From positions 23,746,001-23,810,000 of the forward strand of contig NC_088807.1 of NCBI RefSeq assembly GCF_011386835.1: a stretch of DNA of 64,000 nt, read 5' to 3'. Shown here in pieces: positions 1 through 28,991 of this stretch (position 1 is its first letter; the number at the start of each line of letters is the position of its first letter). The translations under genes were made by a program, and so were the position numbers. The stretch is from Chrysemys picta bellii (taxonomy: Eukaryota). The notes under the pieces are model-generated. The model was not told where the DNA came from and made no database searches. It saw only the letters and a program-made list of their open reading frames with translations.

Positions 1-215
1 CCAGGGAGAGAACCCAGGCGTCCTGCCTCCCAACCCCCCCGGCTCTAACCACCAGCCCCCACTCCCTTCCCAGAGCCAGGGAGAGAACCCAGGCGTCCTG
101 GCACCCAGCCCCGCCCTGCTCCAACCACCAGCCCCCACTCCCCTCTCAGGGCCAGGGAGAGAACCCAGGCGTCCTGGCTCCTAGCCCCCGCCCCCGAAGC
201 AGTGGGGTCTCTCAC

Positions 216-2298
216 GGGGTGAAGGCGCGGATGTCCTGGCTGGTGACGGAGACGTAGGGCTCCAGACGGCTCAGAACCGCCCCGTCGCGGACGTAGAAGA
301 CGGATCCGGCCAGGGGCTTGTTCTCCGTGCTGCCCACCATGGACTGGAGTGCCGGGGGAGATGGAAATTAGGGTTCACCCCATTCTGGGGACCCCAGCCC
401 CTCCCCCCACCCCATCTGCCATCTCCCTGGGAATCTGACCTCTCTCCCCACCCCATCGGCCTCCTGGGGAACCCCAGCCCCTTCCCCCCCAACCAGAGAG
501 CCCCCCCACCCCCATCTCTGGGGTCCCTACCTTGGAGGCGCCGTCACTGTGGTGGGCAGCCAGGCCGAAGGGCTGGGGGCCAGCGTGGTGGGCGGGCTCG
601 GGGGGCAGGTTGGGCCAGCCGCAGAATCGGTGCCGGGTCTCGCTCGGCCGCCCCCCCCGGGGTCAGCGGGACCCGCCAGGCGCGGAGCTGCAGCTGGGGG
701 ACAGAGCACCAGGGGTGGGGGGAGGTGGGGGTCAGTGCAGGGGGGAGGGAGACAGGCGCCCCCATGTTCTAAGGAGCCCCCACCCCTGATCCATAACCTT
801 CCTCCCCCTGCCCCCAACAGCCAGTGGGGGACACGAGAGCAGATCCCAAAAGCCACCCTGGGGGGCGAGAGACAATGTGTGACCCTCAAACGCCTCCACA
901 GCATCACCGCCCCCCCCCCCACCTGGGAGCAGGCGCTGAGCCATGGAACCCAGGCATCCTGGCTCCCAGCCCCCGCACCCCGCTCTACCCACTGCACCCC
1001 ACTCCCCTCCCCTAGCTGGGGATGGAACCCAGCGTCTTGGCTCCCAGCCCCCCCCCCTCTAACCACTAGACCCCACTCCCCTCCCAGAGCCATGGAGAGA
1101 ACCCAGGCGTCCTGGCTCCCAGCCCCCCTGCTCTAACCACTAGTCACCACTCCCCTCCCAGAGCCGGGGATAGAACCCAGGCGTCCTGGCTCCCAGCCCC
1201 CCCCCCCCCTCTAACCACTAGACCCCCACTCCCCTCCCAGAGCCGGGGATAGAACCCAGGCGTCCTGGCTCCCAGCCCCCCTGCTCTAACCACTAGTCCC
1301 CACTCCCCTCCCAGAGCCGGGGATAGAACCCAGGCGTCCTGGCTCCCAGCCCCCCTGCTCTAACCACTAGTCCCCACTCCCCTCCCAGAGCCGGGGATAG
1401 AACCCAGGCTCCCAGCTCCCCCCTCCTTGTGCCTTGTCCCGGAGGTCCTTGTTGCAGTGGACTCTCCACAGCGGGGCGGGCAGGAGGTAGCCGGGCTGCC
1501 CCAGGACCCCTCCGTGGGTTTTCACGTCATGGCAGAGCCCCGTGGTGGTCGCTAGGCGCTGGATCAGCTCTTCCCGCGGGGGCCGCTCCGCGCCGGGGGG
1601 CAGGGGCTCATGGACTGTGGACTGGAGGGGAGACAGAGAGAGCCTGTAACCCCCCGCCCCACACAGCTGGGGAGAGAACCCAGGCGTCCTGGCTGCTGCC
1701 CCCCCCACCCCGACCTCCCATCCCAAATCAGGAGGGAACCCACGCGTCCTGGATGCCAGCCCCTCCCCTCCAACCACTAGGCCCCACTCCCCTCCCAGAG
1801 CCAGGATTAAACGCAGGCATCTTGGCTCCAGTTTCTCCCAGCCCCAGGTCTAACCACCGGACCCCTCTCCCCAAGCCAGGAGGGAACCCAGGCGTCCTGG
1901 CTGCCAGTCCCCTCCCCTCCAACCTCTAGGCCCCACTCCCTGCCCAGAGCCAAGATAGAACCCAGGCGTCCGAGCTCCTAGCCCCCTGCCCCCACTCTAA
2001 CCACGAGACCCCACCCGCCTCCCAGAGCCAGGATAGAACCCAGGCATCCTGGCTCCTGTTCCCCCCCCAGCTCTAACCACCAGACCCCCACTCCCCGAGC
2101 CAGGAGGGAACCCAGGCGTCCAGGCCGCCGGCTGGCACTCACGCGGGCAGCAGGGGGCGGGAAGGGCTGTGGGGGCCAGTTCTCCAGCCCCACTCCACTG
2201 CTGGTGAGGGGCCAGTCCCGGCTGTGGTGCCATTGGGCCCCCTCGACGCCCCAACCCAGGTCGGTGCCCGCGGGCGCGGGCAGGACGGTGCCAGCCAT
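216..2298 (-). CDS. SAXO3: SAXO3-like (stabilizer of axonemal microtubules 3), copy A, exons 1-4; exon 3 frameshifted; last exon lies outside the window
   Basis: Exons 2298-2143 (MAGTVL…PPQPFPPPAAR), 1621-1433 (STVHEPLPP…KTHGG…KDLRDK, GC donor), 693-531 (163 bp, net +1 versus 162 bp in B) and 343-216 (SMVGSTENKPL…QDIRAFTP). Splice sites are phase-compatible. The peptide resembles mammalian SAXO3 as I recall it, and the position between LHB and NTF4 is syntenic. Confidence 0.75.
930..1420 (-). repeat. Tandem array of ~75-bp tRNA-like SINE-head units (SAXO3-A intron 2)
   Basis: Repeated unit, reverse complement of ggggtctagtggttagagcagggggctgggagccaggacgcctgggttctatccccggctctgggaggggagt. The same unit recurs throughout the window. 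Confidence 0.8.
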
Positions 2299-2809
2299 GC
2301 CAGCCTCTGCCCTGGCCCTGCCCCCAGGGGGGGGGTGTTTGTGACTTGTTACCATGGAGCTGGAACCCAGCATATGTGACCTGGCACGGAGCCCAGGGAG
2401 CAGCTGGCAACCCGGATGCCTGGGTTCTCTCCTGGCTCTGGGAGAGTAGTAGGGTAGAGTGGCGGGGGAGGGGCTTAGAGCTAGGACGCCTGGGTTCTCT
2501 CCCCAGCTTGGAGGGGGGGGGGGTGACAAAGTGGGGGCTTTTCATAGTGTGCATGAACACGGTGTGTGCCTCAGTTTCCCTGTGTGCTGGGGGTGTAACT
2601 GGGGGCAGCAGAGGGGGGGTTGTTGCTGCAGGGGGCCAGGTGTGACCTCGCCCAGCAGCCGAGACCCCGACGACAGCCAGGCGATGGGGGACCCAGCGAC
2701 TGGTGCCCGGGAGGCCCCCCCAGCTCGGGAGCAGCCGGTTCCAGCCATTGGGGGAACAAGGGGCTGAGGGGAGGGGCCCAGGTGACCTGCTGGACGACAA
2801 AGGGGTGGT

Positions 2810-3560
2810 GTGGGGCCCAGCTGGAAGGGGGGCCTGTGGGGAGGGGATATAGGGGTCCCGGATGGAAGAGGAGGGCTGTGGGGAGGGGATATAGGGGGCC
2901 TAGCTGGAAGGGGGGGATGTGAGGAGGGGATATGGGCCCCGGTTGGAAGGGGGGGCTGTGGGGAGGGGATACGGGGCCCAGCTGGAAGGGGGGGGCTGTG
3001 GGGAGGGGATATAGGGGGCCTGGCTGGAAGTGGGGGGATGTGAGGAGGGGATATGTGCCCCGGTTGGAAGGGGGGTGTGTGGGGAGGGGATATGGAGTCT
3101 GACTGCACGGGGGGGGGCTGTGGGGAGGGGATATAGGGAGCCTGGCTGGAAAGGGGGGATGTGGGGAGGGGATATGGGCCCCGGTTGGAAGGGAGGGGCT
3201 GTGGGGAGGGGATATAGGGGGCCTGGCTGGAAGGGGGGGCTGTGGGGAGGGGATATAGGGGGCCTGGCTGGAAGGGGGGCGTGGAGGAGGGGATATGGGG
3301 CCCGGGTGGAAGGGGGGGCTATGGGGAGGGGATATAGGGGGCCTGGTTGGAAGGGGGGCATGGGGGAGGGGATATGGGGCCTGGTTGGAAGGAGGGAGGG
3401 CTGTGGGGAGGGGATATAGGGGGCCTGGTTGGAAGGGGGGCATGGGGGAGGGGATATGGGGCCTGGCTGGAAGGGGGGGGCTGTGTGGAGGGGATATGGA
3501 GTCCGACTGCAAGGGGGGGTTGGGAGGGAGGAGATACAGGGCCTGGCTGGAAGGGGGGGC
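2810..3560. repeat. G-rich ~40-bp minisatellite upstream of SAXO3-A
   Basis: Tandem gggggctgtggggaggggatatagggggcctggctggaag variants. In copy B this array is split by LTR element 1. Confidence 0.9.
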
Positions 3561-4049
3561 TGGGGGGCCGAGGAGCAGGTGGAGCCCATGGGGCCGGGCC
3601 ACGGGGCGGGGACTGGCCAAGCCGGGCCCCTGAGAGCTGCCTGGGCTGGGGGGGACGTACGATAACACCCCCCTTTGCACTGGCTGAGGGTTGCTGCGGG
3701 CTGGAGCCCGGGGGGGGGGGCTGCCAGAGCTAGGGGACCCCCGAGGGGCCCGGGGCAGAGCCAGGCACTGGGGGCTCAGGGCTGGCCCCCCAAGAGCGAT
3801 GCCGCTGGATTAACGGCACACTGACACATTTCTGTTCGGGGCCAACGAACGGCCCAGCACGGAGCCCGGATTCGGCCCGAGCGTTCGCCAGAAACAGGCT
3901 CTGGGCGCCAATCGACACCGGCCGGTGCGTTTCCAAGGTGGGGGGAGCAAGTCCCGAGACAACAGCTCTGTTCTAAAGCGAGGAGGGTCCCGGGCAGGAC
4001 AGCGGCTGCTCCGGCTCTTTTTTAGCCGGGTGAGTCGGTATCCGCCCAA

Positions 4050-4180
4050 GAACAGGCTCCTCGCGGCACCACAGTTATTTGGGGAGAAGCTTTCGTGGGC
4101 TACCGCCGATGAAGGGGCTGTAGCCCACGAAAGCTGATGCTCAAATACATGCGTTAGTCTCTAAGGTGCCGCAAGTACGG
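4050..4180. mobile_element. Penelope-like element terminal remnant with inverted repeat and degenerate hammerhead (copy A)
   Basis: Perfect 16-bp inverted repeat agctttcgtgggctac (4088-4103) / gtagcccacgaaagct (4120-4135), followed by gatgctcaaatacatgcgttagtctctaaggtgcc, which resembles reptile PLE ends. Confidence 0.65.
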
Positions 4181-4392
4181 GGCCGGCTTTAGGCCGATTC
4201 CCCCGATGCCCCGGAATCGGGCCCCACGCCTCAGGCACCTTTTAAATTTTTTTTACGCACCTGGCGGTGGTCCGCTCGGGGTCTTCAATGCCGCGGAAGA
4301 CCCGGAGCCAAGTGAAGGACACACTCTCCCCCCCCTGCTGAAGTGTCGCCGAAGACCCGGACCACCGCCGGATATTCGAATCGGGCCCCGCA

Positions 4393-4514
4393 TAGGGTGA
4401 CCAGATGTCCCAATTTTATAGGGACAGTCCTGATTTTGGGGTCTTTTTCTTATATAGGTTCCTATTACCCCCCCACCCCCATCCCGCTTTTTCACACTAC
4501 GTCTGGGCACCCTA
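4393..4514. mobile_element. hAT-type MITE (copy A)
   Basis: TIRs tagggtgaccaga…tctgggcacccta. Flanks gccccgca / gccccgcg match 7 of 8, consistent with an 8-bp TSD. Confidence 0.8.
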
Positions 4515-4645
4515 GCCCCGCGGGTCCTAAAGCCGGCCCTGCCCAAGTACCTCTGGTCTTGCTACGACGCCGTTTTCCCGCACGCAGGAATGCGATCTGG
4601 TAACCCCCACGCCTGCATTTTCCCCTCGCTTGTTTCCTTTTCCCA

Positions 4646-5483
4646 TGTAACAAGTGGTATGACTGGGTCTATGGGAGCCGGCCGTGCCCCAGTGAATTTA
4701 GAAGGGTTTTGTTAAAGGACGACGAGGTAATAACATGGAGACGTAGGGTGACCAGATGTCCTGATTTTATAGGGACAGTCCCGACGTTTGGGTTTTTTTC
4801 TTGTATAGGCTCCTATTACCCCGCATCCCCATCCCGACTTTTCACCCTACGTCTGCTCACCCTACGTAGATGTGATGAGAACAATGTGACGTGGAATAGA
4901 CTGAGTGCGGGTGCGTGGCTGATGTTTGGATGGATAATAAAAGGTCGAGGCGCCGGCCTGAGAATCATAATAAACGACCCCACATCTGGAGGAAGAAAAA
5001 CCACCACCCTCCGGCAGGGCCGTTTGGCCGCAGAATGGGCTGGGGGATAACCCCGAGGGCACCCCCGGAAACACCCCCCAACCGCCCCCGAGGCCGGGAG
5101 GGCCGGAGAACCCAACGACCAGCCGCGATGGATGTGATTGATTCTCACGTCAACCCCGAGACCGGCCTGAACAACCCCCCGAGACGTGTCCCAGGCCGGA
5201 TCCCTATAAAGACAGACCCTAAAGACTGTGGACTTCGGGGCTGGTTCTGCCACCAACTTCCAGGAGCCTCGGACGAGGCCCAGCTCCGTCCCCGTGTCCA
5301 GGCCGGTGCGCGAGCAACTCCTAGGCCGGGAACTAGAATAAGGACCCGGCCGAACGTGCGTGTGTGAATGTGTGAGCGAACGGGTGTTCACCGGCCGCTG
5401 GCTCTAAGTCTGTCTGTAGCCACAATAAACGCAGCGTGTGGCCGTAGCCCCGAGTAACATCCTACGGGGTTTTATTTTCAACA
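4646..5483 (+). mobile_element. Degenerate solo-LTR-like element with nested MITE (copy A)
   Basis: Begins tgtaac, has TATAAA at 5205-5210 and AATAAA at 5424-5429, and ends ttttcaaca. No TSD was found, so the boundaries are tentative. Confidence 0.45.
4744..4864. mobile_element. hAT-type MITE, same family as 4393-4514 (copy A)
   Basis: TIRs tagggtgaccagatg…gtctgctcacccta, with interior similar to the first MITE. Confidence 0.75.
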
Positions 5484-5585
5484 ACCGCCCCCCCCGGGAA
5501 GGCGTCGCAGGGACGGGCTCCTCCCAGGGGCCGTAGGGAGCCGAGCAAACGCGGGGCCTGGGACACAGGGTGTAGCAGTCAGAGC

Positions 5586-5900
5586 AGGGGGGGCTGGGAG
5601 CCAGGATGCCTGGCTCCGGGACGGGAGTGGGGTCTAGTGGTTAGAGCGGGGGGGGGGCAGGACTCCTGGGTTCTCTCCCTGGCTCTGGGAGGGGAGTAGG
5701 GTCTAGTGGCTGGAGCAGGGAGGGCTGGGAGCCAGGACTCCTGGGTTCTCTCCCTGGCTCTGGGAGGGGAGTGGGGTCTAGTGGTTAGAGCAGGGGGGGC
5801 TGGGAGCCAGGACTCCTGGGTTCTCTCCCTGGCTCTGGGAGGGGAGTGGGGTCTAGTGGTTAGAGCAGGGGGGGCCGGGAGACAGGACTCCTGGTTCTAT
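5586..5900 (+). repeat. Tandem tRNA-like SINE-head array (copy A; B equivalent ~26595-26935)
   Basis: About four ~76-bp units containing tagtggttagagca and ctgggttctctccc. Confidence 0.8.
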
Positions 5901-6834
5901 TTTCAGCTCAGCCGGTGGTGGGGGGGTGTTTTGGACTCACCCCTTGCTGTGCCCCCTCCCCCGCCCCAGTGCGGGCTGCCCCTCGCCCGGCTGAGGTTGC
6001 TTGTCCCCTCTGGGAGTGTCATGGGGGGGTCTTGGCCATGAACAGTCTGGGTTCCATTCGGGGGGTGCCAGGGGCTGTTTCCACACTGGCCCTGCTCCGT
6101 TGTTAACCCGTGGGACCCCCCGCTGCAGGACACGCCCCATCCAGAGTTGGGAGTGCAGGGGTGTGGGGCAGTTTGGGGGCCAATTACTCTCTCCCACACA
6201 CATACCCCAGAGAAGTGTGTGCATGTGGGGCAGTTAACGGGGCTGGATGGGTCCATGGGTGTGATTCTGCCCCAGGGTTGGGGGCAGCTACCAGATCAGG
6301 GAGCCCTTGAATATCCCTGTCCCTGCCACAAGGTGGCGTCAAACCCCAGGAATCCCCCCAGCTCCCCCCTCAACCCGGGGCACGAGTGGGGGCCAAACTA
6401 CCCCCCCCAGGGAGCAGAGAGGGGTCAGTCAGGAGGTGTACCTCCCTCAACTGGGGGGGGGGGCTGCGGGTCGGGAGTGAGGGGCACCGGCAGGGCTGGG
6501 GGGGCACTTTGATGGCTGGCCGTGGGACTCATGGGAATCGCAGGGCTCCCAGACTCCTGTGGGGTGGGTGCCCCACATGTGGATCCCGAGGGTCGTGTGT
6601 CCCCCCCGGGAAACAGGCCATGACCCCAATGAACGACGCGGAGACTCTGGGTTTTGTTTCCTTCGGTCTTTTTCGGGTACAAGGAACCGTTCAAGCGGGT
6701 CACGGGGGGGGGATGTCAGGAATAATTTAATTCGGGGGGGGCGGAATGGATCAGAACCGGGGAGAGGGGGGTAATAAATATGGGAAGAAACAGCGAACAG
6801 CCACAAAAGGCAGAAACCCCCTGGAGGCCACAGT

Positions 6835-7235
6835 CCTCAGCCCCCGGGCTGACCCACGGCGCCCACAGCCTCCAGCCCCACAGCTCAGTCTCCGAGCCTG
6901 GCCCCCAGCCCCGAGGGCTGACCCACGGCCCCCAGCCCCACTGCTCAGTCTCCGAGCCTGGCCGCCAGACCCCGGGCTGACCCACGGCGCCCACAGCCTC
7001 CAGCCCCACAGCTCAGTCTCCGAGCCTGGCCCCCAGCCCCGAGGGCTGACCCACGGCTCCCAGCCCCACTGCTCAGTCTCCGAGCCTGGCCCCCAGATCC
7101 TGGGCTGACCCACGGCGCCCACAGCCTCCAGCCCCACAGCTCAGCCTCTGAGCCTGGCCCCCAGGGCTGACCCACGGCCCCCAGCCCCACAGCTCAGTCT
7201 CCAAGCCTGACCCCCAGCCCCAGGCTGAACCCCAG
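6835..7235. repeat. Minisatellite 3' of NTF4-A (B equivalent ~27870-28270)
   Basis: Tandem gggctgacccacggc…cagctcagtctccgagcctggccccca units. Confidence 0.85.
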
Positions 7236-7329
7236 CGTCCATGTGCGTGCCAGTGTCTGAGTCGCTCGGGTTCCCAAGCAGAGCCCAGCGGGCGGGGGCC
7301 GGGGGCTCCATCCCTCAGCCCCCCCCCGG

Positions 7330-7730
<401 letters not shown>

Positions 7731-8230
7731 NNNNNNNNNNNNNNNNNNNNNNNNNNNNNNNNNNNNNNNNNNNNNNNNNNNNNNNNNNNNNNNNNNNNNN
7801 NNNNNNNNNNNNNNNNNNNNNNNNNNNNNNNNNNNNNNNNNNNNNNNNNNNNNNNNNNNNNNNNNNNNNNNNNNNNNNNNNNNNNNNNNNNNNNNNNNNN
7901 NNNNNNNNNNNNNNNNNNNNNNNNNNNNNNNNNNNNNNNNNNNNNNNNNNNNNNNNNNNNNNNNNNNNNNNNNNNNNNNNNNNNNNNNNNNNNNNNNNNN
8001 NNNNNNNNNNNNNNNNNNNNNNNNNNNNNNNNNNNNNNNNNNNNNNNNNNNNNNNNNNNNNNNNNNNNNNNNNNNNNNNNNNNNNNNNNNNNNNNNNNNN
8101 NNNNNNNNNNNNNNNNNNNNNNNNNNNNNNNNNNNNNNNNNNNNNNNNNNNNNNNNNNNNNNNNNNNNNNNNNNNNNNNNNNNNNNNNNNNNNNNNNNNN
8201 NNNNNNNNNNNNNNNNNNNNNNNNNNNNNN
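7731..8230. other. Assembly gap (500 N)
   Basis: Run of exactly 500 N, typical of a scaffolding join of unknown true size. Confidence 0.99.
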
Positions 8231-8720
8231 GCCTGGGTTCTGTGCTTGGCTCTGGGAGGGGGCTGGGGGGCCTTGGAGCCCGGACGCCTGGGTTCTGTGC
8301 TCGGCTCTGGGAGGGGCTGGGGGCCTCGGAGCCCGGATGCCTGGATTCTGTGCTTGGCTCTGGGAGGGGGCTGGGAGTCTTGTGTGGGGGTGGGAGACGG
8401 CTGGGAGCCCGGATGCCTGGGTTCTGTGCTTGGGGCTGGGAGTCTTGTGTGGGGGGTGGGAGACGGCTGGGAGCCCGGATGCCTGGATTCTGTGCTTGGC
8501 TCTGGGAGGGGGCTAGGAGTCTCGTGTGGGTGTGGGAGACGGCTGGGAGCCCGGATGCCTGGGTTCTGTGCTTGGCTCTAGGAGGGGGCTGGGAGTCTCG
8601 TGTGGGGGGTGGGAGACGGCTGGGAGCCCGGACGCCTGGGTTTCTGTGCTTGGCTCTGGGCGGGGGTTGGGGGGCTAGATTCCTTGGTTCTGTGCCTGGC
8701 TCTGGGAGGGGGCTGAGGTC
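8231..8720. repeat. Minisatellite downstream of LHB
   Basis: Tandem gggagcccggatgcctgggttctgtgcttggctctgggagggggct variants. Confidence 0.85.
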
Positions 8721-8888
8721 TAGTGGGTTGTGGGGAGGGGCTGGGAGCCCGGAGCCCCCCCAGGTTCTGTGCCTGGCCCTGGGGGCCAGTGGTCACAACG
8801 AGGCCCTGCTCTGCGCCCCCCCCCCCCCCACCCACACACACACGCACGGAGCCGAGGGCGTGGCCATGGCGTTTATTGCCCCCCGCCC

Positions 8889-9635
8889 CTAGGCGAATCC
8901 CCCCCCGGGGCGCTGCAGAAGTCGGGCCCCCAGGCTGTGCACGGTGCAGTCGCTGGAGTCCATGGGGCACAGGCTGCAGTGGCAGCTCAGTGCCACCGGG
9001 AAGGTGAAGGCCGGGTCCACGCCGGGCGGGCAGCCGGGCAGCGCCAGCGTCTCGTAGCGCACGGCCCGGTAGCTGCAGACGTGTTGGGGAGACGGGCGCC
9101 AGGGCGCTCTTGTACACCGGCTCCTGGGGAGAGAAGGGTAGGGCAGGGGGGCAGGCGGGCAACCCCCCCCGGGGCCTGTGCCCCCCCTCCCGCCGGTGCC
9201 CCGCCCACCCCCCGGGTGCGGGGGTCCCTGCCCGCTGGGCCGCCGCCCCGCCCCGGCCCCCGCCCTCACCTTGGTCTGGCAGTACCCGCTGCAGATGGCC
9301 GTGGCCACGGTGACGCAGACGGGGCAGTCGTCCTTCTCGGCCGCGATGGTGGCGTTGACGGGGCGGCGGCAGAAGCGGCGCCCGCGGGCGGCCCCCAGGG
9401 CCCCCCCGGCCCAGCAGCAGCGGCCAGCACCAGAGCCTGCAGCCCCGCGCTGGGGGAGAGGACAGAGCGGGGGGCAGATGGGGGCCGGCTCGGGGAAGGG
9501 GGCACTGTTAGCTGGGGCCCGGACCCTCCCCAGCAGGGACCCATGTGCCCCCACGCCCCCCCCTGGCCAGCGCACGGCTCCCTGCCCCCCCCATTTCCAG
9601 CCCCCCACCGCTGCTCTCACCTGTGGGGGTCCCAT
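8889..9635 (-). CDS. LHB: Luteinizing hormone beta subunit, 3 exons, with homopolymer frameshifts as assembled
   Basis: Exon 1 9635-9621 (MGPPQ|gtgag). Exon 2 9449-9270 (…[32 protein letters not shown]|gtgag). Exon 3 9123-8889 ([12 protein letters not shown], then +1, [52 protein letters not shown]). Cystine-knot glycoprotein hormone beta motifs CAGYC-type and PVALSC are present. AATAAA at 8877-8872. Syntenic position. Confidence 0.92.
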
Positions 9636-9685
9636 GCTGGCGTTGGTGCCCGAGGAAATCAGCACCAGGCGTTCCCCGCTGCCCC

Positions 9686-9816
9686 TCTTATACCAGCAGC
9701 TCCTGCCCCCCCCAGTGCCCATGTCCCCCCCCCACCCCACTCCAGCTGGCGGCAGCGAGGAGCCAAGGCCACACCCCCCCCGGCACAGGGAGGGGGCGAC
9801 TTCAAGGCCAACGTCA
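9686..9816 (-). promoter_or_regulatory. LHB proximal promoter: TATA box, two SF-1 (NR5A1) sites, one Egr-1-like site, half-CRE
   Basis: TATAAGA 9692-9686; ccaaggcca 9763-9771 and tcaaggcca 9802-9810 (YCAAGGYCR); gagggggcg 9790-9798; acgtca 9811-9816. Confidence 0.7.
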
Positions 9817-17843: not shown

Positions 17844-18306
17844 TGTCACGGAGTATTGGGGGACTCAGGGCCCTGCACCCCCGGCTTCCTGCGATTCACC
17901 ATGACTCTCAGCCAGCCAGTAAAGCAGAAGGTTTATTTGGATGACAGGAATACAGTCCAAGACAGGTCTTGCAGGCACAGACAACAGGGACCCCCTCAGT
18001 TAGGTCCATCTTGGGGTCCCAGGGCATCCCAGCCCAGCCCCCCTTGGGAGGTCAGAGCCATCTCTGACCCCCAGCCATCTCTCCAGCCTGCTTCCAGCAC
18101 TCTCGCTTCAGCGACCCCTCCCACAGCCTTTGTTCAGTTTCCCGGGCCCCGGAGTCATCTGACCTCCAACCCCCTCCTGGGTTCTCATGTTACAAGCTCA
18201 GGTATGTTCCCTTGGGCCGGCTCCCATCCCCCGATGCAGACCATCCTAGTCACACTCCCCTGTCAGCATTCACACACCCCAGCAAGAACAGTCCCAGTTC
18301 GTCACA
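17844..18306 (-). repeat. 5' LTR of element 1
   Basis: Direct repeat of 14200-14662, adjacent to the tRNA-Leu PBS. Confidence 0.95.
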
Positions 18307-19980: not shown

Positions 19981-20098
19981 GTGGCGTAGTCGTGCTTGGA
20001 TCCACAGAACCAGGTCAATTAAGCTTTGGGTCAGAACCCCACGCTGTCCAAATTTGAATTTTGGGATTGAGAGTTTTGTTGGTTAAAGAGCTGCTGCA

Positions 20099-22330
20099 AT
20101 GGCTGAGCAAAGAGCATATGAGGGACTTGGCAAAAAAGCCCTGGAAAATTTGTGTTCAGAAAAGAGGATAAGCTTTAGAAAGAAAGCTACAAATCAGGAA
20201 CTGAGAAATCTGTTAATAGCCAGTGATCAGGGGGCAAGAGCACAGCCCTTACCTGAGGCTGCAGAAGAGGCAGAAAAAATTAGAATGCAAAGGGTGACAA
20301 GTCAACTGCAATTTGAGCATGAACAGAAGCTAGCAGATCTTCGATTGCTGGAGAAGCAAAAAATAGCAGAATTAGAAAGTGAGAGAGAGAAGGAGGCTGC
20401 TGAGAGAGAGAAAGAAGCCGATCAAAGAAAGAAGGAGGCTGATGAGAGAGAAGAGAGAGCTCGTAAGGGACGTCTAGAGCTGCTCGCTGCTGAGCAGGAG
20501 ACTCACAGGATGGAGCAGGAGACTCACAAGATGGAACAGGAGACGGCCAGACTTCAGCTCCAAGTACTGGAAGAGCGGAGAAAGTCATCCCCACCTGGTA
20601 CTCCACTTCCCCCACGCCATGAGAAAAACTGGGAAAGGATGTGTCCCATTTACAACGATACTGAGGATATAGAGGAGTTTTTGTCTACCTTTGAACGCCT
20701 CTGCAATCTGTACCAGATCCCTGAGGGTCAGCGAATGCCTGTCCTGCTGACCAGACTGACTGGAAAAGCCAGGGAGGTATTTAATGACTTGGGGGAACAA
20801 GAAGCCTTGGATTATGGGCAGTTTAAAGATTCTGTGTTAAGGCGATTCAAGGTTACTCCTGAATCTTACAGAGTTAAGTTTAGAGAGTTTAAAATGCCTA
20901 AGGATTGTACTTTTGTAGAATGTGCTCATAAGCTGATGGGTTTTGTTAAAAAGTGGGTTGTGGGAGCCAAGGCGCATGGGAGTTTTGAAAAACTGCTGGA
21001 TTTAATAACTTTGGAACAGTTCTTAGATATTGTGCCTGACCATGTGAGAGCAGCTGTGTGTGACAGGGACCCTGAGTCAGTCCTACGGGCAGCAGAGATT
21101 GCGGATGCCCATACCCAGAACAGGGCTCGAGAAGGGTGTAAAACCCCGGGGAAAACTAATCACCATTCTCCCCAGTTCAAGAGGAGGGAGGGATTTAAAA
21201 GTAAATCTGTCCCTGACTCTTCTAGAGGAGTTCAAGGGGGCCCGGAGGGTAGGAACTCTCATCCCAGGACGGAACAGATTACATGCTATCACTGTGGTAT
21301 GCTGGGCCACATGAGACCAGATTGCCCGACCCTGAAGGGCAGCCCAAAGCCAGCAACCCCAAATGCCACGATAAATGCCAACTCCATTACCCTGAGCACT
21401 CAGGCTGAACCAAGCCACAACAGCTCCACCTTAAGTTCAGGTGCAAGCACAGCAGTAGCTAATGTTAACCCCATCGTCTCCAGTGGCATGGGAGGAGGTG
21501 ATAAGCTCACCAGTTATGTCAGGACTGAGGCGTGGCAGGGGAGTGAGAGGTTTATCATGGAGGCAAAGGTCAATGATGTTGAATGCACGGGATGGCGAGA
21601 CACTGGCTCGGATGTAACTATAGTCAAGGGACATCTGGTGAAGCCGGAGGACATGCTGCCGGGGGAGTATGTGACGGTAGTGGCGTTATCCGAGTACTCT
21701 GTGGACCTGCCAATGGCTAGAATCCACCTGGAGTGGGATGGCTTTAAAGGGGACGTGAAGGCTGCTGTCCGGGATTTGATTCCGGCTGATGTGTTGGTAG
21801 GAAATAACATATTGGGGGTGCCTGGCCAAGTTAATGTAGTGACCAGGTCACAGAAAGAATTTGGGGCTGTGGCAGATACCCTGACTGATGGCAGTGAGGG
21901 GGGCAGCAAACAGACAGAGAGTGCCTCTCAAGATGGATCAGGTGAGGGTTTGTCTGAAATATCAGAGATGATTCTGAATCCGACCAAAACCCAGAGTGAA
22001 TTCATTGTGGCTCAGCAGAGTGATGTATCTCTAGAGAGGGCCAGGAATGATGCTCAGAGTCAGGTCCCAGCCTGTGAAGAGAGAGGCAGGTTTTTTATGC
22101 AGGATGGGCTGTTGTATAGGGAACCACCTAGGGGAAAGAAGCATTCCCAAGCAGCAGCTCGCAAACAGCTTGTGGTACCTGAGAGTTACCACAATGATTT
22201 GTTGAAGTTGGCTCATGATAGTCCCTTTGCAGGACATCTGGGTGTAGGCAAAACGTGTGACAGGCTAGAGCAGAATTTCTACTGGCCCCACCTTTTTGGG
22301 TCGGTGAGAGATTACTGCAGGAGCTGTTAG
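20099..22330 (+). CDS. Gag-protease-integrase N-terminus (743 aa), ended by an in-frame TAG
   Basis: SCAN-like segment (ITLEQFLDIVPDHVRAAVCDRDPES), CCHC CYHCGMLGHMRPDC, protease WRDTGSDVT, integrase Zn motif AHDSPFAGH…CRSC*LC. Confidence 0.9.
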   Translation: MAEQRAYEGLGKKALENLCSEKRISFRKKATNQELRNLLIASDQGARAQPLPEAAEEAEKIRMQRVTSQLQFEHEQKLADLRLLEKQKIAELESEREKEAAEREKEADQRKKEADEREERARKGRLELLAAEQETHRMEQETHKMEQETARLQLQVLEERRKSSPPGTPLPPRHEKNWERMCPIYNDTEDIEEFLSTFERLCNLYQIPEGQRMPVLLTRLTGKAREVFNDLGEQEALDYGQFKDSVLRRFKVTPESYRVKFREFKMPKDCTFVECAHKLMGFVKKWVVGAKAHGSFEKLLDLITLEQFLDIVPDHVRAAVCDRDPESVLRAAEIADAHTQNRAREGCKTPGKTNHHSPQFKRREGFKSKSVPDSSRGVQGGPEGRNSHPRTEQITCYHCGMLGHMRPDCPTLKGSPKPATPNATINANSITLSTQAEPSHNSSTLSSGASTAVANVNPIVSSGMGGGDKLTSYVRTEAWQGSERFIMEAKVNDVECTGWRDTGSDVTIVKGHLVKPEDMLPGEYVTVVALSEYSVDLPMARIHLEWDGFKGDVKAAVRDLIPADVLVGNNILGVPGQVNVVTRSQKEFGAVADTLTDGSEGGSKQTESASQDGSGEGLSEISEMILNPTKTQSEFIVAQQSDVSLERARNDAQSQVPACEERGRFFMQDGLLYREPPRGKKHSQAAARKQLVVPESYHNDLLKLAHDSPFAGHLGVGKTCDRLEQNFYWPHLFGSVRDYCRSC

Positions 22331-24754
22331 CTGTGCCAGAAGCGTAAGGGGTTAAGGGGGCCTAGCAAGGTGCCCCTCCAGCCTCTGCCCATTATTGGGG
22401 AAGCTTTTGCCAGAGTAGCTGTGGATATTGTGGGGCCACTCCCTAAACCTTCCAGAAATGGGAAGAAATACATCCTGGTGTTGGTAGATTTTGCTACCAG
22501 ATATCCGGAGGCTGTAGCCTTGGCTAATATCGAGGCAGAGACAGTGGCAGTGGCCTTGTTCTCTATTTTCAGCAGAGTGGGTTTTCCCAAGGAAATATTG
22601 TCTGACCGTGGGTCTAACTTTATGTCTGTGGTTTTCAAACAGTTGTGGGAGTTATGTGGGGTGAAGCACCTGAAAGCTGCTCCCTACCACCCCCAGACTA
22701 ATGGTCTAGTGGAGAGGTTCAATGGAACCCTGAAGTCTATGTTGAAAATGTACGTGGATAGACGCCAGAATGACTGGGATGTTATGCTGCCGTATCTATT
22801 GTATGCATACAGGAGTGTGCCCCAAGAGTCTACAGGGTTTGCTCCCTTTGAACTGCTCTATGGGAGGCAGGTCCGGGGGCCCCTAGATTTGGTTCGTGAC
22901 TCGTGGGAAGGTAATGTGGAGGAGGCAGAGCAGCCGGTGGCCGAGTATGTGGCTCAATTCAAGGAGAGTTTGCAGGAGATGATGAAGTTGGTTGAGCAGA
23001 ATCTGAAAGAGAGCCAGGATACGCAGAAAGCCTGGTATGACAGAGATGCTAAAGAGAGAGCGTTTGAAATAGGGGACATGGTGTTGGTGCTAGATCCTGT
23101 CAGGAAGAACAAAATGAAAGATGTTTGGTCTGGACCCATGGAGGTAGTGGAAAGGATTAATGAGGTTACCTATGATGTGAGGAAGCCCCAGGTACAGGGA
23201 AGTGTGCAGACAGTGCATGTGAACAGAATGAAGGCTTACCATGCAAGGGAGGTAAATGTGAACACAATCTGTTATGCTGAGGAAGAGGCAGGATCTGCCC
23301 CTTTAATTGACATGGTTGCTGAAAGCCAGGAGGAAACGCCGCTTGAGAGCATTGAGATGGGGGAGGATTTAACCCCCCCTCAAAGAAAGGAACTGCTGAG
23401 GCTGTTAAAACACCACAAACAAACATTCTCCAATAGGCCAGGGCTCACAGATAGGATGACACACTCCATTCAGACGGTGGGTCCCCGCCCAGCCCCTAGC
23501 AGAGCTTACAGGGCCAAGGGAGAGATGCAAAGACAGATCCAGGAAGAGGTGGAGAGCATGTTGACAATGGGAATAATCACCAGATCCCAGAGCCCCTGGG
23601 CCTCTCCCATTGTGATGGTGCCAAAAAAGGATAAGACCATGAGGTTTTGTGTGGATTACAGGAAGCTAAATGCTATCACCCAGCCTGACCCTTACCCCAC
23701 ACCCAGAATAGAGGATCTACTGGATACGCTGGGAGGGGCAAGGTTTATAAGCACCCTGGACCTGACTAAGGGGTACTGGCAAATACCCCTAGATGCCGAG
23801 GCACAAGGAAAATCCGCTTTCATAGTGGAATCGGGCCTATATGAGTTCAAAGTGCTGCCCTTTGGGATGCGAAATTCAGGGGCTACGTTCATGAGACTTA
23901 TAAATGAGGTCCTACGGGGATTAGAATCTTTTGCGAGGGCCTATATAGACGACCTGGCCGTATTCAGCAGTTCGTGGCAAGATCACCTGAACCACATAGG
24001 GATTGTGCTGCACCGGCTCAGGGAGGCCAATCTAACGGTTAAGGTTTCTAAATGCAGAATGGGAGCTGCTGAGGTGACCTACCTGGGGCACAGGGTGGGC
24101 AATGGGCAACTGCGCCCAGAGCCTGTAAAGGTAGAGGCCATTAAAAACTGGCCAACCCCTAGAACTAAAAAGCAGGTCCAATCCTTCATTGGTCTGGCCA
24201 ACTATTACAGGAGATTTGTGCAGGGATTCAGCGACATTGTTGCTCCCATCACAGACCTGACGAAAAAGGAAAAACCAGACCGGGTGCTATGGACGGAGGC
24301 CTGTGAGCAGGGTTTTCAAAGCATAAAGAGCGCTTTGGCCAAGGAGCCTGTTTTGGCCAGCCCAGATTTTGAAAAGCCCTTTTTATTATGTACAGACGCT
24401 TCCAATATTGGGCTGGGGGCAGTGCTAATGCAAGAGGGGGAAGGAGGGAAGAGACATCCCGTGGCATATCTAAGTAAGAAATTGTCCCCCACTGAGCAAA
24501 ATTACGCTACCATTGAAAAGGAATGTTATGCCATTGTCTGGGCTGTCAAGCAACTTAAGCCCTATTTGTACAATAAAAAATTCACTGTGTTGAGTGATCA
24601 TGCCCCTCTGGTCTGGCTGCACAGGGCCAAGGGCAACAACTCCAGGTTGCTGCGTTGGAGTTTAGCCCTTCAGGAGTATGAAATGGATATAGTCCACATA
24701 AGGGGAAAGGAAAATATTGTAGCTGATGCATTGTCCAGAGTGGAGAGCTCTTAG
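22331..24754 (+). CDS. Integrase core, reverse transcriptase and RNase H (same frame, after the TAG)
   Basis: DDE: VDIVGPL, LSDRGSNF, GLVERFNGT. RT: RFCVDYRKLN, LDLTKGYWQI, MPFG-like LPFGM, YIDD. RNase H: CTDAS, EKECYAI, SDHAPL, ADALSR. Confidence 0.9.
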   Translation: MCQKRKGLRGPSKVPLQPLPIIGEAFARVAVDIVGPLPKPSRNGKKYILVLVDFATRYPEAVALANIEAETVAVALFSIFSRVGFPKEILSDRGSNFMSVVFKQLWELCGVKHLKAAPYHPQTNGLVERFNGTLKSMLKMYVDRRQNDWDVMLPYLLYAYRSVPQESTGFAPFELLYGRQVRGPLDLVRDSWEGNVEEAEQPVAEYVAQFKESLQEMMKLVEQNLKESQDTQKAWYDRDAKERAFEIGDMVLVLDPVRKNKMKDVWSGPMEVVERINEVTYDVRKPQVQGSVQTVHVNRMKAYHAREVNVNTICYAEEEAGSAPLIDMVAESQEETPLESIEMGEDLTPPQRKELLRLLKHHKQTFSNRPGLTDRMTHSIQTVGPRPAPSRAYRAKGEMQRQIQEEVESMLTMGIITRSQSPWASPIVMVPKKDKTMRFCVDYRKLNAITQPDPYPTPRIEDLLDTLGGARFISTLDLTKGYWQIPLDAEAQGKSAFIVESGLYEFKVLPFGMRNSGATFMRLINEVLRGLESFARAYIDDLAVFSSSWQDHLNHIGIVLHRLREANLTVKVSKCRMGAAEVTYLGHRVGNGQLRPEPVKVEAIKNWPTPRTKKQVQSFIGLANYYRRFVQGFSDIVAPITDLTKKEKPDRVLWTEACEQGFQSIKSALAKEPVLASPDFEKPFLLCTDASNIGLGAVLMQEGEGGKRHPVAYLSKKLSPTEQNYATIEKECYAIVWAVKQLKPYLYNKKFTVLSDHAPLVWLHRAKGNNSRLLRWSLALQEYEMDIVHIRGKENIVADALSRVESS

Positions 24755-24809
24755 GATGCAGTCAGTGGTGTTTGTGACATCCCTTCCTGCATCAATTTTG
24801 CGTTGGGGG

Positions 24810-25047
24810 TGTGACGTTATTGATATACTCTGGGACCATATAGATCATTGTTGCAACCAAGGTCCTGTAGTGGCACCCAGATCTTGTGCGGTTAGCCAGG
24901 GGGTGAGACCGAAGTCCTCCTAGTCTGGCTGGTTTGGTTTGCCTTGGAGGTGGAAAAACCCCAGCCTTGGGCTGTAACTGCCCTGTTTGAGCAATTTGTC
25001 CTGAGTTGGCACTCTCAGTTGGGTTCCACCAGAACCGCATTGTCACA
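24810..25047 (+). repeat. 3' LTR of element 2 with an 811-bp internal deletion (238 bp)
   Basis: Equals 18932-19010 joined to 19822-19980, with no mismatches seen. Confidence 0.92.
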
Positions 25048-25063
25048 CCGGGTGAGTCGGTAT

Positions 25064-25200
25064 CCGCCCAAGAACAGGCTCCTCGCGGCACCACAGTTAT
25101 TTGGGCAGAAGCTTTCGTGGGCTACCGCCGATGAAGGGGCCGTAGCCCACGAAAGCTGATGCTCAAATACATGTGTTAGTCTCTAAGGTGCCGCAAGTAC
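25064..25200. mobile_element. Penelope-like terminal remnant (copy B)
   Basis: Inverted repeat 25110-25125 / 25142-25157, homologous to 4050-4180. Confidence 0.65.
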
Positions 25201-25406
25201 GGAGCCGGCTTTAGGCCGATTTCCCGGAATCGGGCCCCACGCCTCAGGCACCTTTTAAATTTTTTTTACGCACCCGGCGGTGGTCCGCTCGGGGTCTTCA
25301 ATGCCGCGGAAGACCCGGAGCCAAGTGAAGGACACTCTCCCCCCCCCCCCGCTGAAGTGTTGCCGAAGACCCGGACCGCCGCCGGGTATTCGAATCGGGC
25401 CCCGCA

Positions 25407-25528
25407 TAGGGTGACCAGATGTCCCAATTTTATAGGGACAGTCCTGATTTTGGGGTCTTTTTCTTATATAGGTTCCTATTACCCCCCCACCCCCATCCCG
25501 CTTTTTCACACTACGTCTGGGCACCCTA
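25407..25528. mobile_element. hAT-type MITE (copy B)
   Basis: Homologous to 4393-4514, with the same TIRs. Confidence 0.8.
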
Positions 25529-25659
25529 GCCCCGCCGGTCCTAAAGCCGGCCCTGCCCAAGTACCTCTGGTCTTGCTACGACGCCGTTTTCCCGCACGCA
25601 GGAATGCGATCTGGTAACCCCCATGCCTGCATTTTCCCCTCGCTTGTTTCCTTTTCCCA

Positions 25660-26497
25660 TGTAACAAGTGGTATGACTGGGTCTATGGGAGCCGGCCGTG
25701 CCCCAGTGAATTTAGAAGGGTTTTGTTAAAGGACGACGAGGTAATAACATGGAGACGTAGGGTGACCAGATGTCCTGATTTTATAGGGACAGTCCCGACG
25801 TTTGGGTTTTTTTCTTGTATAGGCTCCTATTACCCCGCATCCCCATCCCGACTTTTCACCCTACGTCTGCTCACCCTACCTAGATGTGATGAGAACAATG
25901 TGACGTGGACTAGACTGAGTGCGGGTGCGTGGCTGATGTTTGGATGGATAATAAAAGGTCGAGGCGCCGGCCTGAGAATCATAATAAACGACCCCACATC
26001 TGGAGGAAGAAAAACCACCACCCTCCGGCAGGGCCGTTTGGCCGCAGAATGGGCTGGGGGATAACCCCGAGGGCACCCCCGGAAACACCCCCCAACCGCC
26101 CCCGAGGCCGGGAGGGCCGGAGAACCCAACGACCAGCCGCGATGGATGTGATTGATTCTCACGTCAACCCCGAGACCGGCCTGAACAACCCCCCGAGACG
26201 TGTCCCAGGCCGGATCCCTATAAAGACAGACCCTAAAGGCTGTGGACTTCGGGGCTGGTTCTGCCACCAACTTCCAGGAGCCTCGGACGAGGCCCAGCTC
26301 CGTCCCCGTGTCCAGGCCGGTGCGCGAGCAACTCCTAGGCTGGGAACTAGAATAAGGACCCGGCCGAACGTGCGTGTGTGAATGTGTGAGCGAACGGGTG
26401 TTCACCGGCCGCTGGCTCTAAGTCTGTCTGTAGCCACAATAAACGCCGCGTGTGGCCGTAGCCCCGAGTAACATCCTACGGGGTTTTATTTTCAACA
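25660..26497 (+). mobile_element. Degenerate solo-LTR-like element with nested MITE at 25758-25878 (copy B)
   Basis: Homologous to 4646-5483. Confidence 0.45.
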
Positions 26498-28367
26498 ACC
26501 GGCCCCCCCGAGAAGGCGTCGCAGGGACGGGCTCCTCCCAGGGGCCGTAGGGGGCCGAGCAAACGCGGGGCCTGGGACACAGGGTGTAGCAGTCAGAGCA
26601 GGGGGGGCGGGGAGCCAGGACGCCTGGGTTCTCTCCCTGGCTCCGGGAGGGGAGTGGGGTCTAGTGGTTAGAGCGGGGGGGGCTGGGAGCCAGGACTCCT
26701 GGGTTCTCTCCCTGGCTCTGGGAGGGGAGTGGGGTCTAGTGGTTAGAGCAGGGGGGGCTGGGAGCCAGGACTCCTGGGTTCTCTCCCTGGCTCTGGGAGG
26801 GGAGTGGGGTCTAGTGGTTAGAGCAGGGGGGGCCGGGAGCCAGGACTCCTGGGTTCTCTCCCTGGCTCTGGGAGGGGAGTGGGGTCTAGTGGTTAGAGCA
26901 GGGGGGGGCGGGAGACAGGACTCCTGGTTCTATTTTCAGCTCAGCCGGTGGTGGCGGGGTGTTTGGACTCACCCCTTGCTGTGCCCCCTCCCCCCCCCAG
27001 TGTGGGCTGCCCCTCGCCCGGCTGAGGTTGCTTGTCCCCTTTGGGGGTGTCATGGGGGGGGTCTTGGCCGTGAACAGTCTGGGTTCCATTCGGGGGGTGC
27101 CAGGGGCTGTTTCCACACTGGCCCCGCCCTGTTGTTAACCCGTGGGACCCCCCGCTGCAGGACACGCCCCATCCAGAGTTGGGAGTGCAGGGGTGTGGGG
27201 CAGTTTGGGGGCCAATTACTCTCTCCCACACACATACCCCAGAGAAGTGTGTGTGTGGGGGGCAGTTAACAGGGCTGGATGGGTCCATGGGTGTGATTCT
27301 GCCCCGGGGTTGGGGGCAGCTACCAGATCAGGGAGCCCTTGAATATCCCTGTCCCTGCCACAAGGTGGCGTCAAACCCCAGGAAACCCCCCAGCTCCCCC
27401 CTCAACCCGGGGCACGAGTGGGGGCCAAACTACCCCCCCAGGGGAGCAGAGAGGGGTCAGTCAGGAGGTGTACCTCCCTCAACTGGGGGGGGGGGGCTGC
27501 GGGTCGGGAGTGAGGGGCACCTGCAGGGCTGGGGGGGCACTTTGATGGCTGGCCGTGGGACTCATGGGAATCGCGGGGCTCCCAGACTCCTGTGGGGTGG
27601 GTGCCCCACATGTGGATCCCGAGGGTCGTGTCCCCCCCGGGAAACAGGCCGTGACCCCAATGAACGACGCGGAGACTCTGGGTTTGTTTCCTTCGGGTCT
27701 TTTCCGGGTACAAGGAACCGTCAAGCGGGTCACGGGGGGGGGGGATGTCAGGGAATAATTTAATTCGGGGGGGGCGGAATTGGATCAGAACCGGGGGGAG
27801 GGGGGGTAATAAATATGGGAAGAAACAGCGAACAGCCACAAAAGGCAGAAACCCCCTGGAGGCCACAGTCCTCAGCCCCCGGGCTGACCCACGGAGCCCA
27901 CAGCCTCCAGCCCCACAGCTCAGTCTCCGAGCCTGGCCCCCAGCCCCGAGGGCTGACCCATGGCTCCCAGCCCCACTGCTCAGTCTCCGAGCCTGGCCCC
28001 CAGATCCTGGGCTGACCCACGGCGCCCACAGCCTCCAGCCCCACAGCTCAGTCTCCGAGCCTGGCCCCCAGCCCCGAGGGCTGACCCACGGCTCCCAGCC
28101 CCACTGCTCAGTCTCCGAGCCTGGCCCCCAGATCCTGGGCTGACCCACGGCGCCCACAGCCTCCAGCCCCACAGCTCAGCCTCTGAGCCTGGCCCCCAGG
28201 GCTGACCCACGGCCCCCAGCCCCACAGCTCAGTCTCCGAGCCTGACCCCCAGCCCCAGGCTGACCCACAGCGTCCATGTGCGTGCCAGTGTCTGAGTCGC
28301 TCGGGTTCCCAAGCAGAGCCCAGCGGGGCGGGGGCCGGGGGCTCCATCCCTCCAGCCCCCCCCCCGG

Positions 28368-28991
28368 CTACGTCCGCCCGGCGCGGCTCAGCAGGGTGCA
28401 GACGCAGGCCGTGTCGATGCGGATCCAGCGCCAGCCCACCAGCTTGTCGGCGTCGGCGGTCAGGGCCCGCACGTACGACTGCTTGGCCTTGCACTCGGAG
28501 AGCCAGTGGCGCCGGTCCACACCCCGGCACCCGCCCGCCGTCCCGCCCGCCGGGTTGCACTTGGTCTCGAAGAAATACTGCTTGAGCGGCCCGGTGAGCG
28601 TCTGCACCTCGGACAGCACCGACACCGCCTTGCCCCGGATGTCCACGGCCGTGCGCTTGTCCGTCACCCACAGGCTGACGCTGTCGCACACGGACATCTC
28701 GCCCCGGCGGGCCGCCTCCGGCCCCCCGGCCCGCCGCGCCCGTCGCGTCCCGTTGGCCGGCCCCGCCTGCACGCCCGGCTCCTCCTCCAGGAGCAGCAGC
28801 AGGGGGGGCCCGGCGGGGGCTCGGCTGGCCAGGGCCACGCGGGGGGACGACAGCTCCCAGTCGCCCGGGGAGGAGGGCAGCGCGGCCCAGGGGACCCCGG
28901 CGTCCGGGACGGCGGGGGAGGGGAGGCGGAGCGGCACGGCATGGAGGGCGCAAAGGAACGAGGTGACCATAGCCTGGAGCCGAAAGAGCAT
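28368..28991 (-). CDS. NTF4: Neurotrophin-4 precursor (207 aa), single coding exon, intact
   Basis: [18 protein letters not shown] signal peptide; furin site RRARR; mature NGF-family domain [21 protein letters not shown]…QYFFETKC…[24 protein letters not shown]…[14 protein letters not shown]. Acceptor at 29005-29004. Next to KCNA7, as in mammals. Confidence 0.96.

What the first reader, a model, noticed from the sequence alone, without database searches (positions are those of the whole stretch)
1..28767. Tandem duplication of the (LHB)-SAXO3-NTF4 block: possible independent parallel of the primate LHB/CGB/NTF6 cluster, or a false duplication
Seen: 1-7730 repeats 11227-28767, so the order is SAXO3-A, partial NTF4-A, gap, LHB, SAXO3-B, NTF4-B, KCNA7. 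Known: in simian primates this same interval duplicated to give the chorionic gonadotropin beta genes interspersed with NTF4-derived NTF6 pseudogenes. Inference: if the unit extends left of the window it would include a second LHB. A reptile would then have independently duplicated the same gonadotropin/neurotrophin unit, with frameshifted NTF4-A as an NTF6 analogue. Against: the copies are separated by a 500-N scaffold gap, differ by only roughly 1-2% (my hand estimate), and carry homopolymer indels that cluster near the gap and vanish further right. That pattern is typical of two haplotypes left unmerged because of heterozygous LTR insertions. I rate the artefact as somewhat more likely.
Basis: partly seen in the sequence, partly recalled or inferred. 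Interest (0 to 1): 0.7.

Follow-up and report, generated by a model that had tools for sequence, protein, structure and literature searches.

The report
False LHB-NTF4 duplication in turtle assembly
Two near-identical copies of a turtle's luteinizing-hormone and neurotrophin-4 genes sit on either side of an assembly gap, and they are most likely the two parental versions of one region written out twice, not a real parallel to the primate pregnancy-hormone gene cluster.

Summary
The repeat is in the assembly and is larger than reported. Copy A runs from -2900 to 7730 and includes a second, intact LHB left of the window; copy B runs from 8231 to 28767. Each copy ends on the base next to the 500-N gap. 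Copies differ at 102 of 7105 non-array columns (1.44%); B carries two young LTR elements. The broken genes lie at contig ends: LHB-B (LHB-A intact) and NTF4-A (NTF4-B intact). Contigs of four public runs lack 7-8 of NTF4-A's 8 indel bases. The best-matching sample carries both letter sets, and a second letter set continues into single-copy DNA. Contig depth over the unit is 0.78-1.23 times the flank, against 1.64-1.85 expected for four copies. Three other samples differ from A as much as B does. The next gap to the left shows the same edge-to-edge overlap (about 28-30 kb). Verdict: unmerged haplotypes, about 94%. The error has reached public annotation as extra 'LHB-like' and 'SAXO3-like' models. 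No raw or long reads could be laid, so a heterozygous real duplication is not fully excluded.

The parts
1..7730 (.). Copy A, in-window part (right end of the left contig). The unit continues left to -2900 (G000:C17:23743100) and there holds intact LHB-A (about -2265 to -1537) and the last SAXO3-A exon (-713 to -321).
209..2298 (-). SAXO3-A exons 1-4; one frameshifting homopolymer base in exon 3 at 651
   Evidence: tblastn with Mauremys protein P0121
7333..7730 (-). NTF4-A, 3' part of the coding exon, cut by the gap; indels against NTF4-B at 7397, 7483, 7628 and 7691
   Evidence: contigs of 4 of 4 runs lack 7-8 of the 8 indel bases in 7115-7730
7731..8230 (.). 500-N scaffold gap; both ends of the repeat unit lie on its edges
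8231..28767 (.). Copy B (left end of the right contig), collinear with -2900..7730 plus two LTR elements
8889..9635 (-). LHB-B, frameshifted in exons 2 and 3; source of the public 'LOW QUALITY PROTEIN: lutropin subunit beta-like' model P0143
10503..13321 (-). SAXO3-B with five coding indels (10670, 10760, 11866, 11898, 13167); source of the public 'SAXO3-like' model P0134
14200..18306 (-). LTR retroelement 1, present in B only; LTRs identical at 462 of 463 bases; 5-bp target duplication
18932..25047 (+). LTR retroelement 2, present in B only; SCAN, zinc-knuckle and integrase domains; 3' LTR internally deleted, 237 of 237 shared bases identical; 5-bp target duplication; empty site at A 4027-4031
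   Evidence: X15 and X17 contigs cross the empty site
28368..28991 (-). NTF4-B, intact 207-aa coding exon
28768..35700 (.). Single-copy flank used as control; a second set of letters continues here in sample S1
43162..45995 (-). Potassium-channel gene (KCNA7 by synteny), single in the 604 kb examined

Best explanation
The two copies flank a 500-N gap edge to edge and are most likely the two alleles of one single-copy LHB-SAXO3-NTF4 region, assembled as the ends of two contigs and scaffolded in tandem instead of merged. Shown: the geometry, the 1.44% divergence, the two B-only LTR insertions, and where the broken frames lie.
For: (1) Both unit ends lie exactly on the gap edges. (2) 2 of 6 gaps in the 604 kb examined have such an overlap; the neighbour is also edge to edge, about 28-30 kb, with 270 mismatches in 16968 columns. 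(3) LHB-A is intact and 99% identical to Malaclemys and Terrapene LHB while LHB-B is broken; NTF4-B is intact while NTF4-A is broken. (4) Contigs of 4 of 4 runs show 7-8 gaps against NTF4-A; an X15 contig keeps B's LHB letters at 9084 and 9389 yet has 17 gap bases against B, where A and B differ by 18. (5) In sample S1, 20 of 20 listed X2/X3 differences from B inside the unit are A's letter, with no third type; 20 more listed differences lie in the single-copy flank, 16 shared with another sample (40 of 90 rows shown). (6) Depth ratio unit/flank: X1 1.23, X2 1.02, X3 0.84, X17 0.78; expected 0.82-0.93 for alleles, 1.64-1.85 for four copies. (7) Samples S10, S11, S12 differ from A at 9, 12 and 8 sites over about 820-860 bases where B differs at 10. 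(8) X15 and X17 contigs carry B letters and cross the empty LTR-2 site. (9) Gap between copies, haploid depth and raised heterozygosity are the published signs (PMC9516828, passages).
Against: All runs are Logan contigs: depth is one mean per contig, which the tool says is no copy number; contigs drop variants and do not keep phase. In X1 the right half of the unit is deeper (9.7-12.1) than the flank (5.5-7.6); the left half is shallower (4.35-5.9). S1 shows about three times more differences per base in the unit (X2 17 of 1656, X3 22 of 1986) than in the flank (10 of 3381, 11 of 3484). The pooled X2+X3 ratio, 0.93 (bootstrap 0.74-1.20), overlaps the low end of the three-copy range, 1.12-1.50.
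Confidence: 0.94

Rival explanations
1. A real but heterozygous or polymorphic tandem duplication in the sequenced animal (three copies per diploid genome), with its junction hidden in the gap.
For: The gap could hide the rest of NTF4-A and a junction. X1 is about 1.5 times deeper over the right half of the unit than over the flank. The three-copy range (1.12-1.50) overlaps the intervals of X1, X2 and, barely, X3. Differences per base in S1 are higher in the unit than the flank.
Against: No third letter type among 20 listed sites in the unit (10 letters counted in the pieces are not shown). X1 is shallower than the flank over the left half. X3 (0.84) and the pooled estimate (0.93) sit at the allelic value. 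It needs both contigs to break by chance at the same gap, and the neighbouring gap shows the same pattern. Copies 1.44% apart with two private insertions are as far apart as alleles of different samples.
Confidence: 0.04
2. A fixed tandem duplication in the species, parallel to the primate LHB/CGB/NTF6 cluster, with NTF4-A and LHB-B decaying or diverging.
For: Both letter sets are real and occur in several samples. The same interval did duplicate repeatedly in primates (PMC2478647, passages), and a rhinoceros LHB duplication is in print (title in the reference list of PMC9176407). The LHB-B model ends in a frameshifted tail, superficially like the origin of the CG-beta tail (CG-beta origin recalled).
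Against: Expected depth ratio 1.64-1.85 lies above all four bootstrap intervals (upper limits 1.53, 1.48, 1.19, 0.99). The frameshifts are not in public contigs. X1 contigs match B letter for letter in 3 of 3 pieces on the right and match A's difference counts on the left, which equal-dose paralogues would be unlikely to give. No related turtle shows a second distinct LHB locus among 15 of 17 members listed in the main cluster (weak, identical copies merge).
Confidence: 0.015
3. A homotype false duplication: one haplotype assembled twice because of sequencing error alone.
For: 49 of 74 indels are 1-2 bp homopolymer changes; a few letters (A 3817, 3828, 3903; B 8898) are contradicted by 4 of 4 runs.
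Against: A letters reappear in X2 and X3 and in other samples; 71 of 102 substitutions are transitions; the LTR insertions have intact target duplications and the empty site exists in other samples.
Confidence: 0.005

Closest known systems
Heterotype false duplication (Ko et al. 2022, PMC9516828; passages seen)
   Same: Gap between the pair on one scaffold, no doubling of depth, two real letter sets, raised heterozygosity, erroneous bases, and false gene gains in annotation.
   Different: Linked-read discordance and k-mer multiplicity could not be measured here; depth comes from contig means, not mapped reads.
Primate LHB/CGB/NTF6 cluster at 19q13.3 (PMC2478647, PMC2954307; passages seen)
   Same: Same syntenic interval between RUVBL2 and NTF4 (NTF5)/KCNA7; the apparent unit carries an LH-beta gene and part of NTF4.
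   Different: The primate cluster has sequenced junctions, 6-7 genes at 85-99% identity, NTF6 pseudogenes and Alu repeats at the junctions. Here the only junction is a gap, the lesions are not in public contigs, and depth is not raised.
White rhinoceros LHB duplication (Lund and Sherman 1998; only the title seen, in the reference list of PMC9176407)
   Same: Shows that LHB can duplicate outside primates, so the idea was reasonable.
   Different: I saw nothing of its structure; it gives no support for this turtle locus.

Membership tests
Heterotype false duplication (PMC9516828) | Gap between the duplicated pair on the same scaffold | tested here: met
   8231 aligns to -2900 and 7730 to 28767; 500 N between
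Heterotype false duplication (PMC9516828) | Haploid depth on each copy (no doubling when collapsed) | tested here: met
   Coarse test on contig means: ratios 1.23, 1.02, 0.84, 0.78 against 1.64-1.85 for four copies; three copies not fully excluded
Heterotype false duplication (PMC9516828) | Both copies carry real, haplotype-specific letters (not errors alone) | tested here: met
   20 of 20 listed X2/X3 differences from B in the unit are A letters; both sets in other samples
Heterotype false duplication (PMC9516828) | One-copy k-mer multiplicity of the copy-specific words | not testable with these tools
   Only contigs were served; no k-mer counts per allele
Heterotype false duplication (PMC9516828) | Discordant linked pairs or long reads not spanning the join | not testable with these tools
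   24 of 24 runs listed are kept as contigs
Primate-type LHB/CGB/NTF6 segmental duplication | Sequenced junction between tandem units | tested here: not met
   The junction is the gap; no breakpoint sequence in the assembly
Primate-type LHB/CGB/NTF6 segmental duplication | NTF4-derived pseudogene with real disabling lesions | tested here: not met
   4 of 4 runs lack 7-8 of NTF4-A's 8 indel bases; an X2 contig with three A letters has 0 gaps against intact NTF4-B
Primate-type LHB/CGB/NTF6 segmental duplication | Second LH-beta-derived gene with real sequence change | tested here: not met
   Contigs over LHB-B show 17-31 gap bases against it; LHB-B's in-frame parts differ from LHB-A by one signal-peptide residue and an extra Arg
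Primate-type LHB/CGB/NTF6 segmental duplication | Raised copy number shared by individuals | tested here: not met
   X17 (another sample) ratio 0.78, interval 0.60-0.99
Primate-type LHB/CGB/NTF6 segmental duplication | Distinct expression of the derived copy | not tested

The most novel reading that the evidence does not exclude
This turtle carries a real, young, still-segregating tandem duplication of the whole LHB-SAXO3-NTF4 block, the same interval that gave the primate CGB/NTF6 cluster, with the junction hidden in the gap: a living first step of that kind of event in a reptile.
Probability: 0.05. Interest if true: 0.65.

Novelty: not a real feature. Interest (0 to 1): 0.1.

Why it matters
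As an artefact it matters for curation. Public annotation of this contig lists two LH-beta models (XP_065427053.1 intact, XP_065427055.1 'LOW QUALITY') and two SAXO3 models (XP_065427179.1, 174 aa; XP_065427056.1, 310 aa, frameshifted), so anyone counting gonadotropin genes in reptiles would score a false gain, and neither SAXO3 model has the 344-aa length of its relatives. It also shows a region with about 1.4% allelic divergence and two young insertions between LHB and NTF4. If the duplication were real, it would be an independent start of the event that produced chorionic gonadotropin; the evidence makes that unlikely.

Tried and rejected
Joints and loose ends (tables 5 and 7) were swamped by genome-wide minisatellite and small-transposon families and showed no usable junction either way; they are not used as evidence. 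Most depth bins (table 2) are inflated by repeats, so depth was taken from single long contigs (tables 3 and 8): 10+6 pieces for X1, 4+6 for X2, 4+7 for X3, 11+7 for X17; X15 and X18 had no flank data and were left out of the ratio. Pfam found no family for the last SAXO3 exon; the name comes from homologues. Four of six gaps in 604 kb showed no overlap beyond minisatellite matches within 40 kb. tblastn of LHB proteins on copy B printed no rows at my identity filter, so LHB-B frames rest. Earlier-findings look-ups gave nothing on this locus. One paper search for a duplicated turtle LHB (12 of 44 listed) showed none in the listing; this is not proof of absence. I considered reading 1.44% as too high for alleles and rejected it because other samples differ from A as much as B does. 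I considered the LHB-B tail as a CG-like extension and rejected it because it sits in the error-rich first 700 bases of the contig and 4 of 4 runs contradict the letter at 8898.
Full report
Observation. The window is G000:C17:23746001-23810000. Window 1-7730 aligns collinearly with 11227-28767, apart from two insertions in the right copy and minisatellite unit counts. The only N run is 7731-8230. A search of the genome with the in-window LHB gave 2 matches, the second 96% identical just left of the window; NTF4 gave 2 matches here plus one distant 66-base hit on another contig. With the flanks fetched, the unit is A = -2900..7730 and B = 8231..28767 (negative numbers continue window coordinates leftwards). 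The first base after the gap aligns to -2900 and the last base before it to 28767. Left of A lies the 3' end of a gene that I recognise as RUVBL2 from its translation (recalled, no call names it; it is the expected neighbour in PMC2478647, passages). It and the potassium-channel gene occur once in the 604 kb examined.

Organism and genes. NTF4-B is an intact 207-aa frame whose best relatives are turtle NTF4 proteins (93% to Pangshura). Named painted-turtle (Chrysemys picta bellii) records lie on a contig of the same length as C17 and correspond to the two copies: LHB XP_065427053.1 (139 aa) and 'LOW QUALITY' LHB-like XP_065427055.1; SAXO3 XP_065427179.1 (174 aa) and SAXO3-like XP_065427056.1. 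So the repeat is already annotated as gene gains.

Divergence. Outside tandem arrays the copies differ at 102 of 7105 columns (1.44%; 71 transitions, 31 transversions) and by 74 indel events, 49 of them 1-2 bp in homopolymers. Indels are densest at the two contig ends (27.9 per kb at B's start, 12-14 per kb at A's end) and rarest at A 4100-6100 (2-4 per kb), though most bins over A -1900 to 4100 still hold about 9-13 per kb. B has two LTR elements that A lacks, each with a 5-bp target duplication; their LTR pairs are identical at 462 of 463 and 237 of 237 shared bases, so both are young.

Where the genes are broken. LHB-A is intact, with normal splice sites, and 99% identical to Malaclemys and Terrapene LHB; LHB-B, 660-1400 bases from its contig start, is frameshifted in exons 2 and 3. 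NTF4-B is intact; NTF4-A, in the last 400 bases of its contig, has four coding indels. SAXO3-B has five coding indels and SAXO3-A one. Each badly broken copy is the one at a contig end. The SAXO3-A lesion at 651 is the exception and is unexplained; X17's gap count (7 where A and B differ by 8) suggests it too is an error.

Public runs. One search listed 24 runs, all kept as contigs. I laid 6 of them. On window 3568-13843, contigs of X1, X15, X17 and X18 show 8, 7, 7 and 7 gap bases against NTF4-A, where A and B differ by 8, and all four run on past 7730. Over LHB-B they show 29, 17, 31 and 31 gap bases; the X15 contig keeps B's letters at 9084 and 9389, so a B-type LHB allele exists almost without B's indels. 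Over about 820-860 bases near A 4800-5600 the other samples differ from A at 9, 12 and 8 sites; B differs at 10; one listed letter (4934) is neither A nor B. X15 and X17 contigs carry B letters and cross the empty LTR-2 site. On window 25880-35700, X1 matches the window with 0 substitutions in 8 of 8 pieces. X2 and X3, from the same sample S1, differ from B inside the unit, and 20 of 20 listed differences are A's letter. They also differ at 20 listed sites in the single-copy flank, 16 shared with X17 (40 of 90 rows were shown). So S1 holds two sequence types on both sides of the 28767 boundary, as alleles would. S1 behaves like the source animal, so it is the right sample for the depth test but not independent support; S10-S12 are other samples.

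Depth. Mean contig depth, unit over flank: X1 1.23 (bootstrap 0.95-1.53), X2 1.02 (0.76-1.48), X3 0.84 (0.60-1.19), X17 0.78 (0.60-0.99); X2 and X3 pooled 0.93 (0.74-1.20). My simple model of collapsed contigs expects 0.82-0.93 for alleles, 1.12-1.50 for three copies and 1.64-1.85 for four. Four copies fall outside every interval; three copies do not. The tool warns that these means are no copy number, the pieces are few, and GC runs from 0.54 to 0.75, so the test is coarse. Against my reading: X1 is deeper over the right half of the unit (9.7-12.1) than over the flank (5.5-7.6), though shallower over the left half (4.35-5.9), and S1 shows about three times more differences per base in the unit than in the flank. 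X1 follows A on the left and B on the right. One inference is that X1 is a long-read run in which A reads thin out rightwards and B reads leftwards, which would also explain why each contig ends where it does; the library is not on record, so this is untested.

Control. In 604 kb there are 6 gaps of 500 N; 2 have a tandem overlap. The neighbour, 116 kb left of the window, is also edge to edge: the first base after the gap maps to -146359 and the last before it to -88817, with 270 mismatches in 16968 columns. Two real duplications 90 kb apart, both broken exactly at their junction and both about 1.5% diverged, are far less likely than one assembly habit.

Mechanism. Most likely each contig followed one haplotype of a heterozygous, GC-rich, minisatellite-rich region. 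The 1.4% divergence and 10 kb of B-only insertions kept them from merging, scaffolding placed them in tandem, and thin support left homopolymer errors at the ends. Geometry, divergence, insertions and lesions are shown; the assembler's behaviour is inferred.

Comparison. Ko et al. (PMC9516828, passages) list half depth, a gap between the pair, discordant linked pairs and one-copy k-mers as signs of false duplication, with 1.5-1.8 times higher heterozygosity; two were met here, real haplotype letters were shown, and two could not be tested. The primate cluster (PMC2478647 and PMC2954307, passages) lies in the same interval but has sequenced junctions and NTF6 pseudogenes; none of its tested features is met. 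A rhinoceros LHB duplication is known to me only as a title. Other papers were seen as search listings only. No supplements were opened.

Verdict. Not a real feature: heterotype false duplication, about 0.94. Interest 0.1. A real segregating duplication keeps about 0.05 and would deserve 0.65.

Noticed in passing
G000:C17:23599642-23657184 (window coordinates -146359 to -88817; loci L055-L059, L012, L011): A second edge-to-edge tandem overlap of about 28-30 kb across the next 500-N gap to the left, about 1.6% substitutions; probably another unmerged haplotype pair. Its genes were not identified.
   Followed up: partly
window 18932-25047: LTR element with SCAN and zinc-knuckle domains and the integrase ahead of the reverse-transcriptase-like part (a Gmr1-type order; label recalled); one in-frame stop in the long frame; 3' LTR lacks about 810 internal bases although the shared parts are identical.
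   Followed up: partly
window 14200-18306; related copies at -78843 to -74789 and around the gap at 77726-78225 (L010, L014, L015): The LTR-1 family has several 94-97% copies nearby; the copy around the gap at 78226-86389 has an internal repeat that may also be an assembly effect.
   Followed up: no
window 9389 (LHB exon 2): Signal-peptide Thr/Ala difference: A, X1, X17 and X18 have Thr; B, X15 and 7 of 7 other turtle proteins aligned have Ala. Probably a segregating allele.
   Followed up: partly
window 651 (SAXO3-A exon 3): One extra C breaks SAXO3-A far from a contig end; the public model of this copy starts downstream (174 aa against 344 aa in relatives). Error or real loss-of-function allele not settled.
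   Followed up: partly
protein P0135 (Carettochelys insculpta record): A 494-aa public model joins SAXO3 to LH-beta in one chain; read-through or annotation error.
   Followed up: no
window 47725-49882 and 60771-62800: Long GC-rich minisatellites (40-bp unit about 54 times; 36-bp unit); a 74-76-bp unit recurs throughout the region and gives depths above 100,000 in the laid runs.
   Followed up: no
window about 52000-64000: Frames that read like SNRNP70 (minus strand) and LIN7B (plus strand) follow the potassium-channel gene, as in human 19q13.33 (names recalled, not tested).
   Followed up: no
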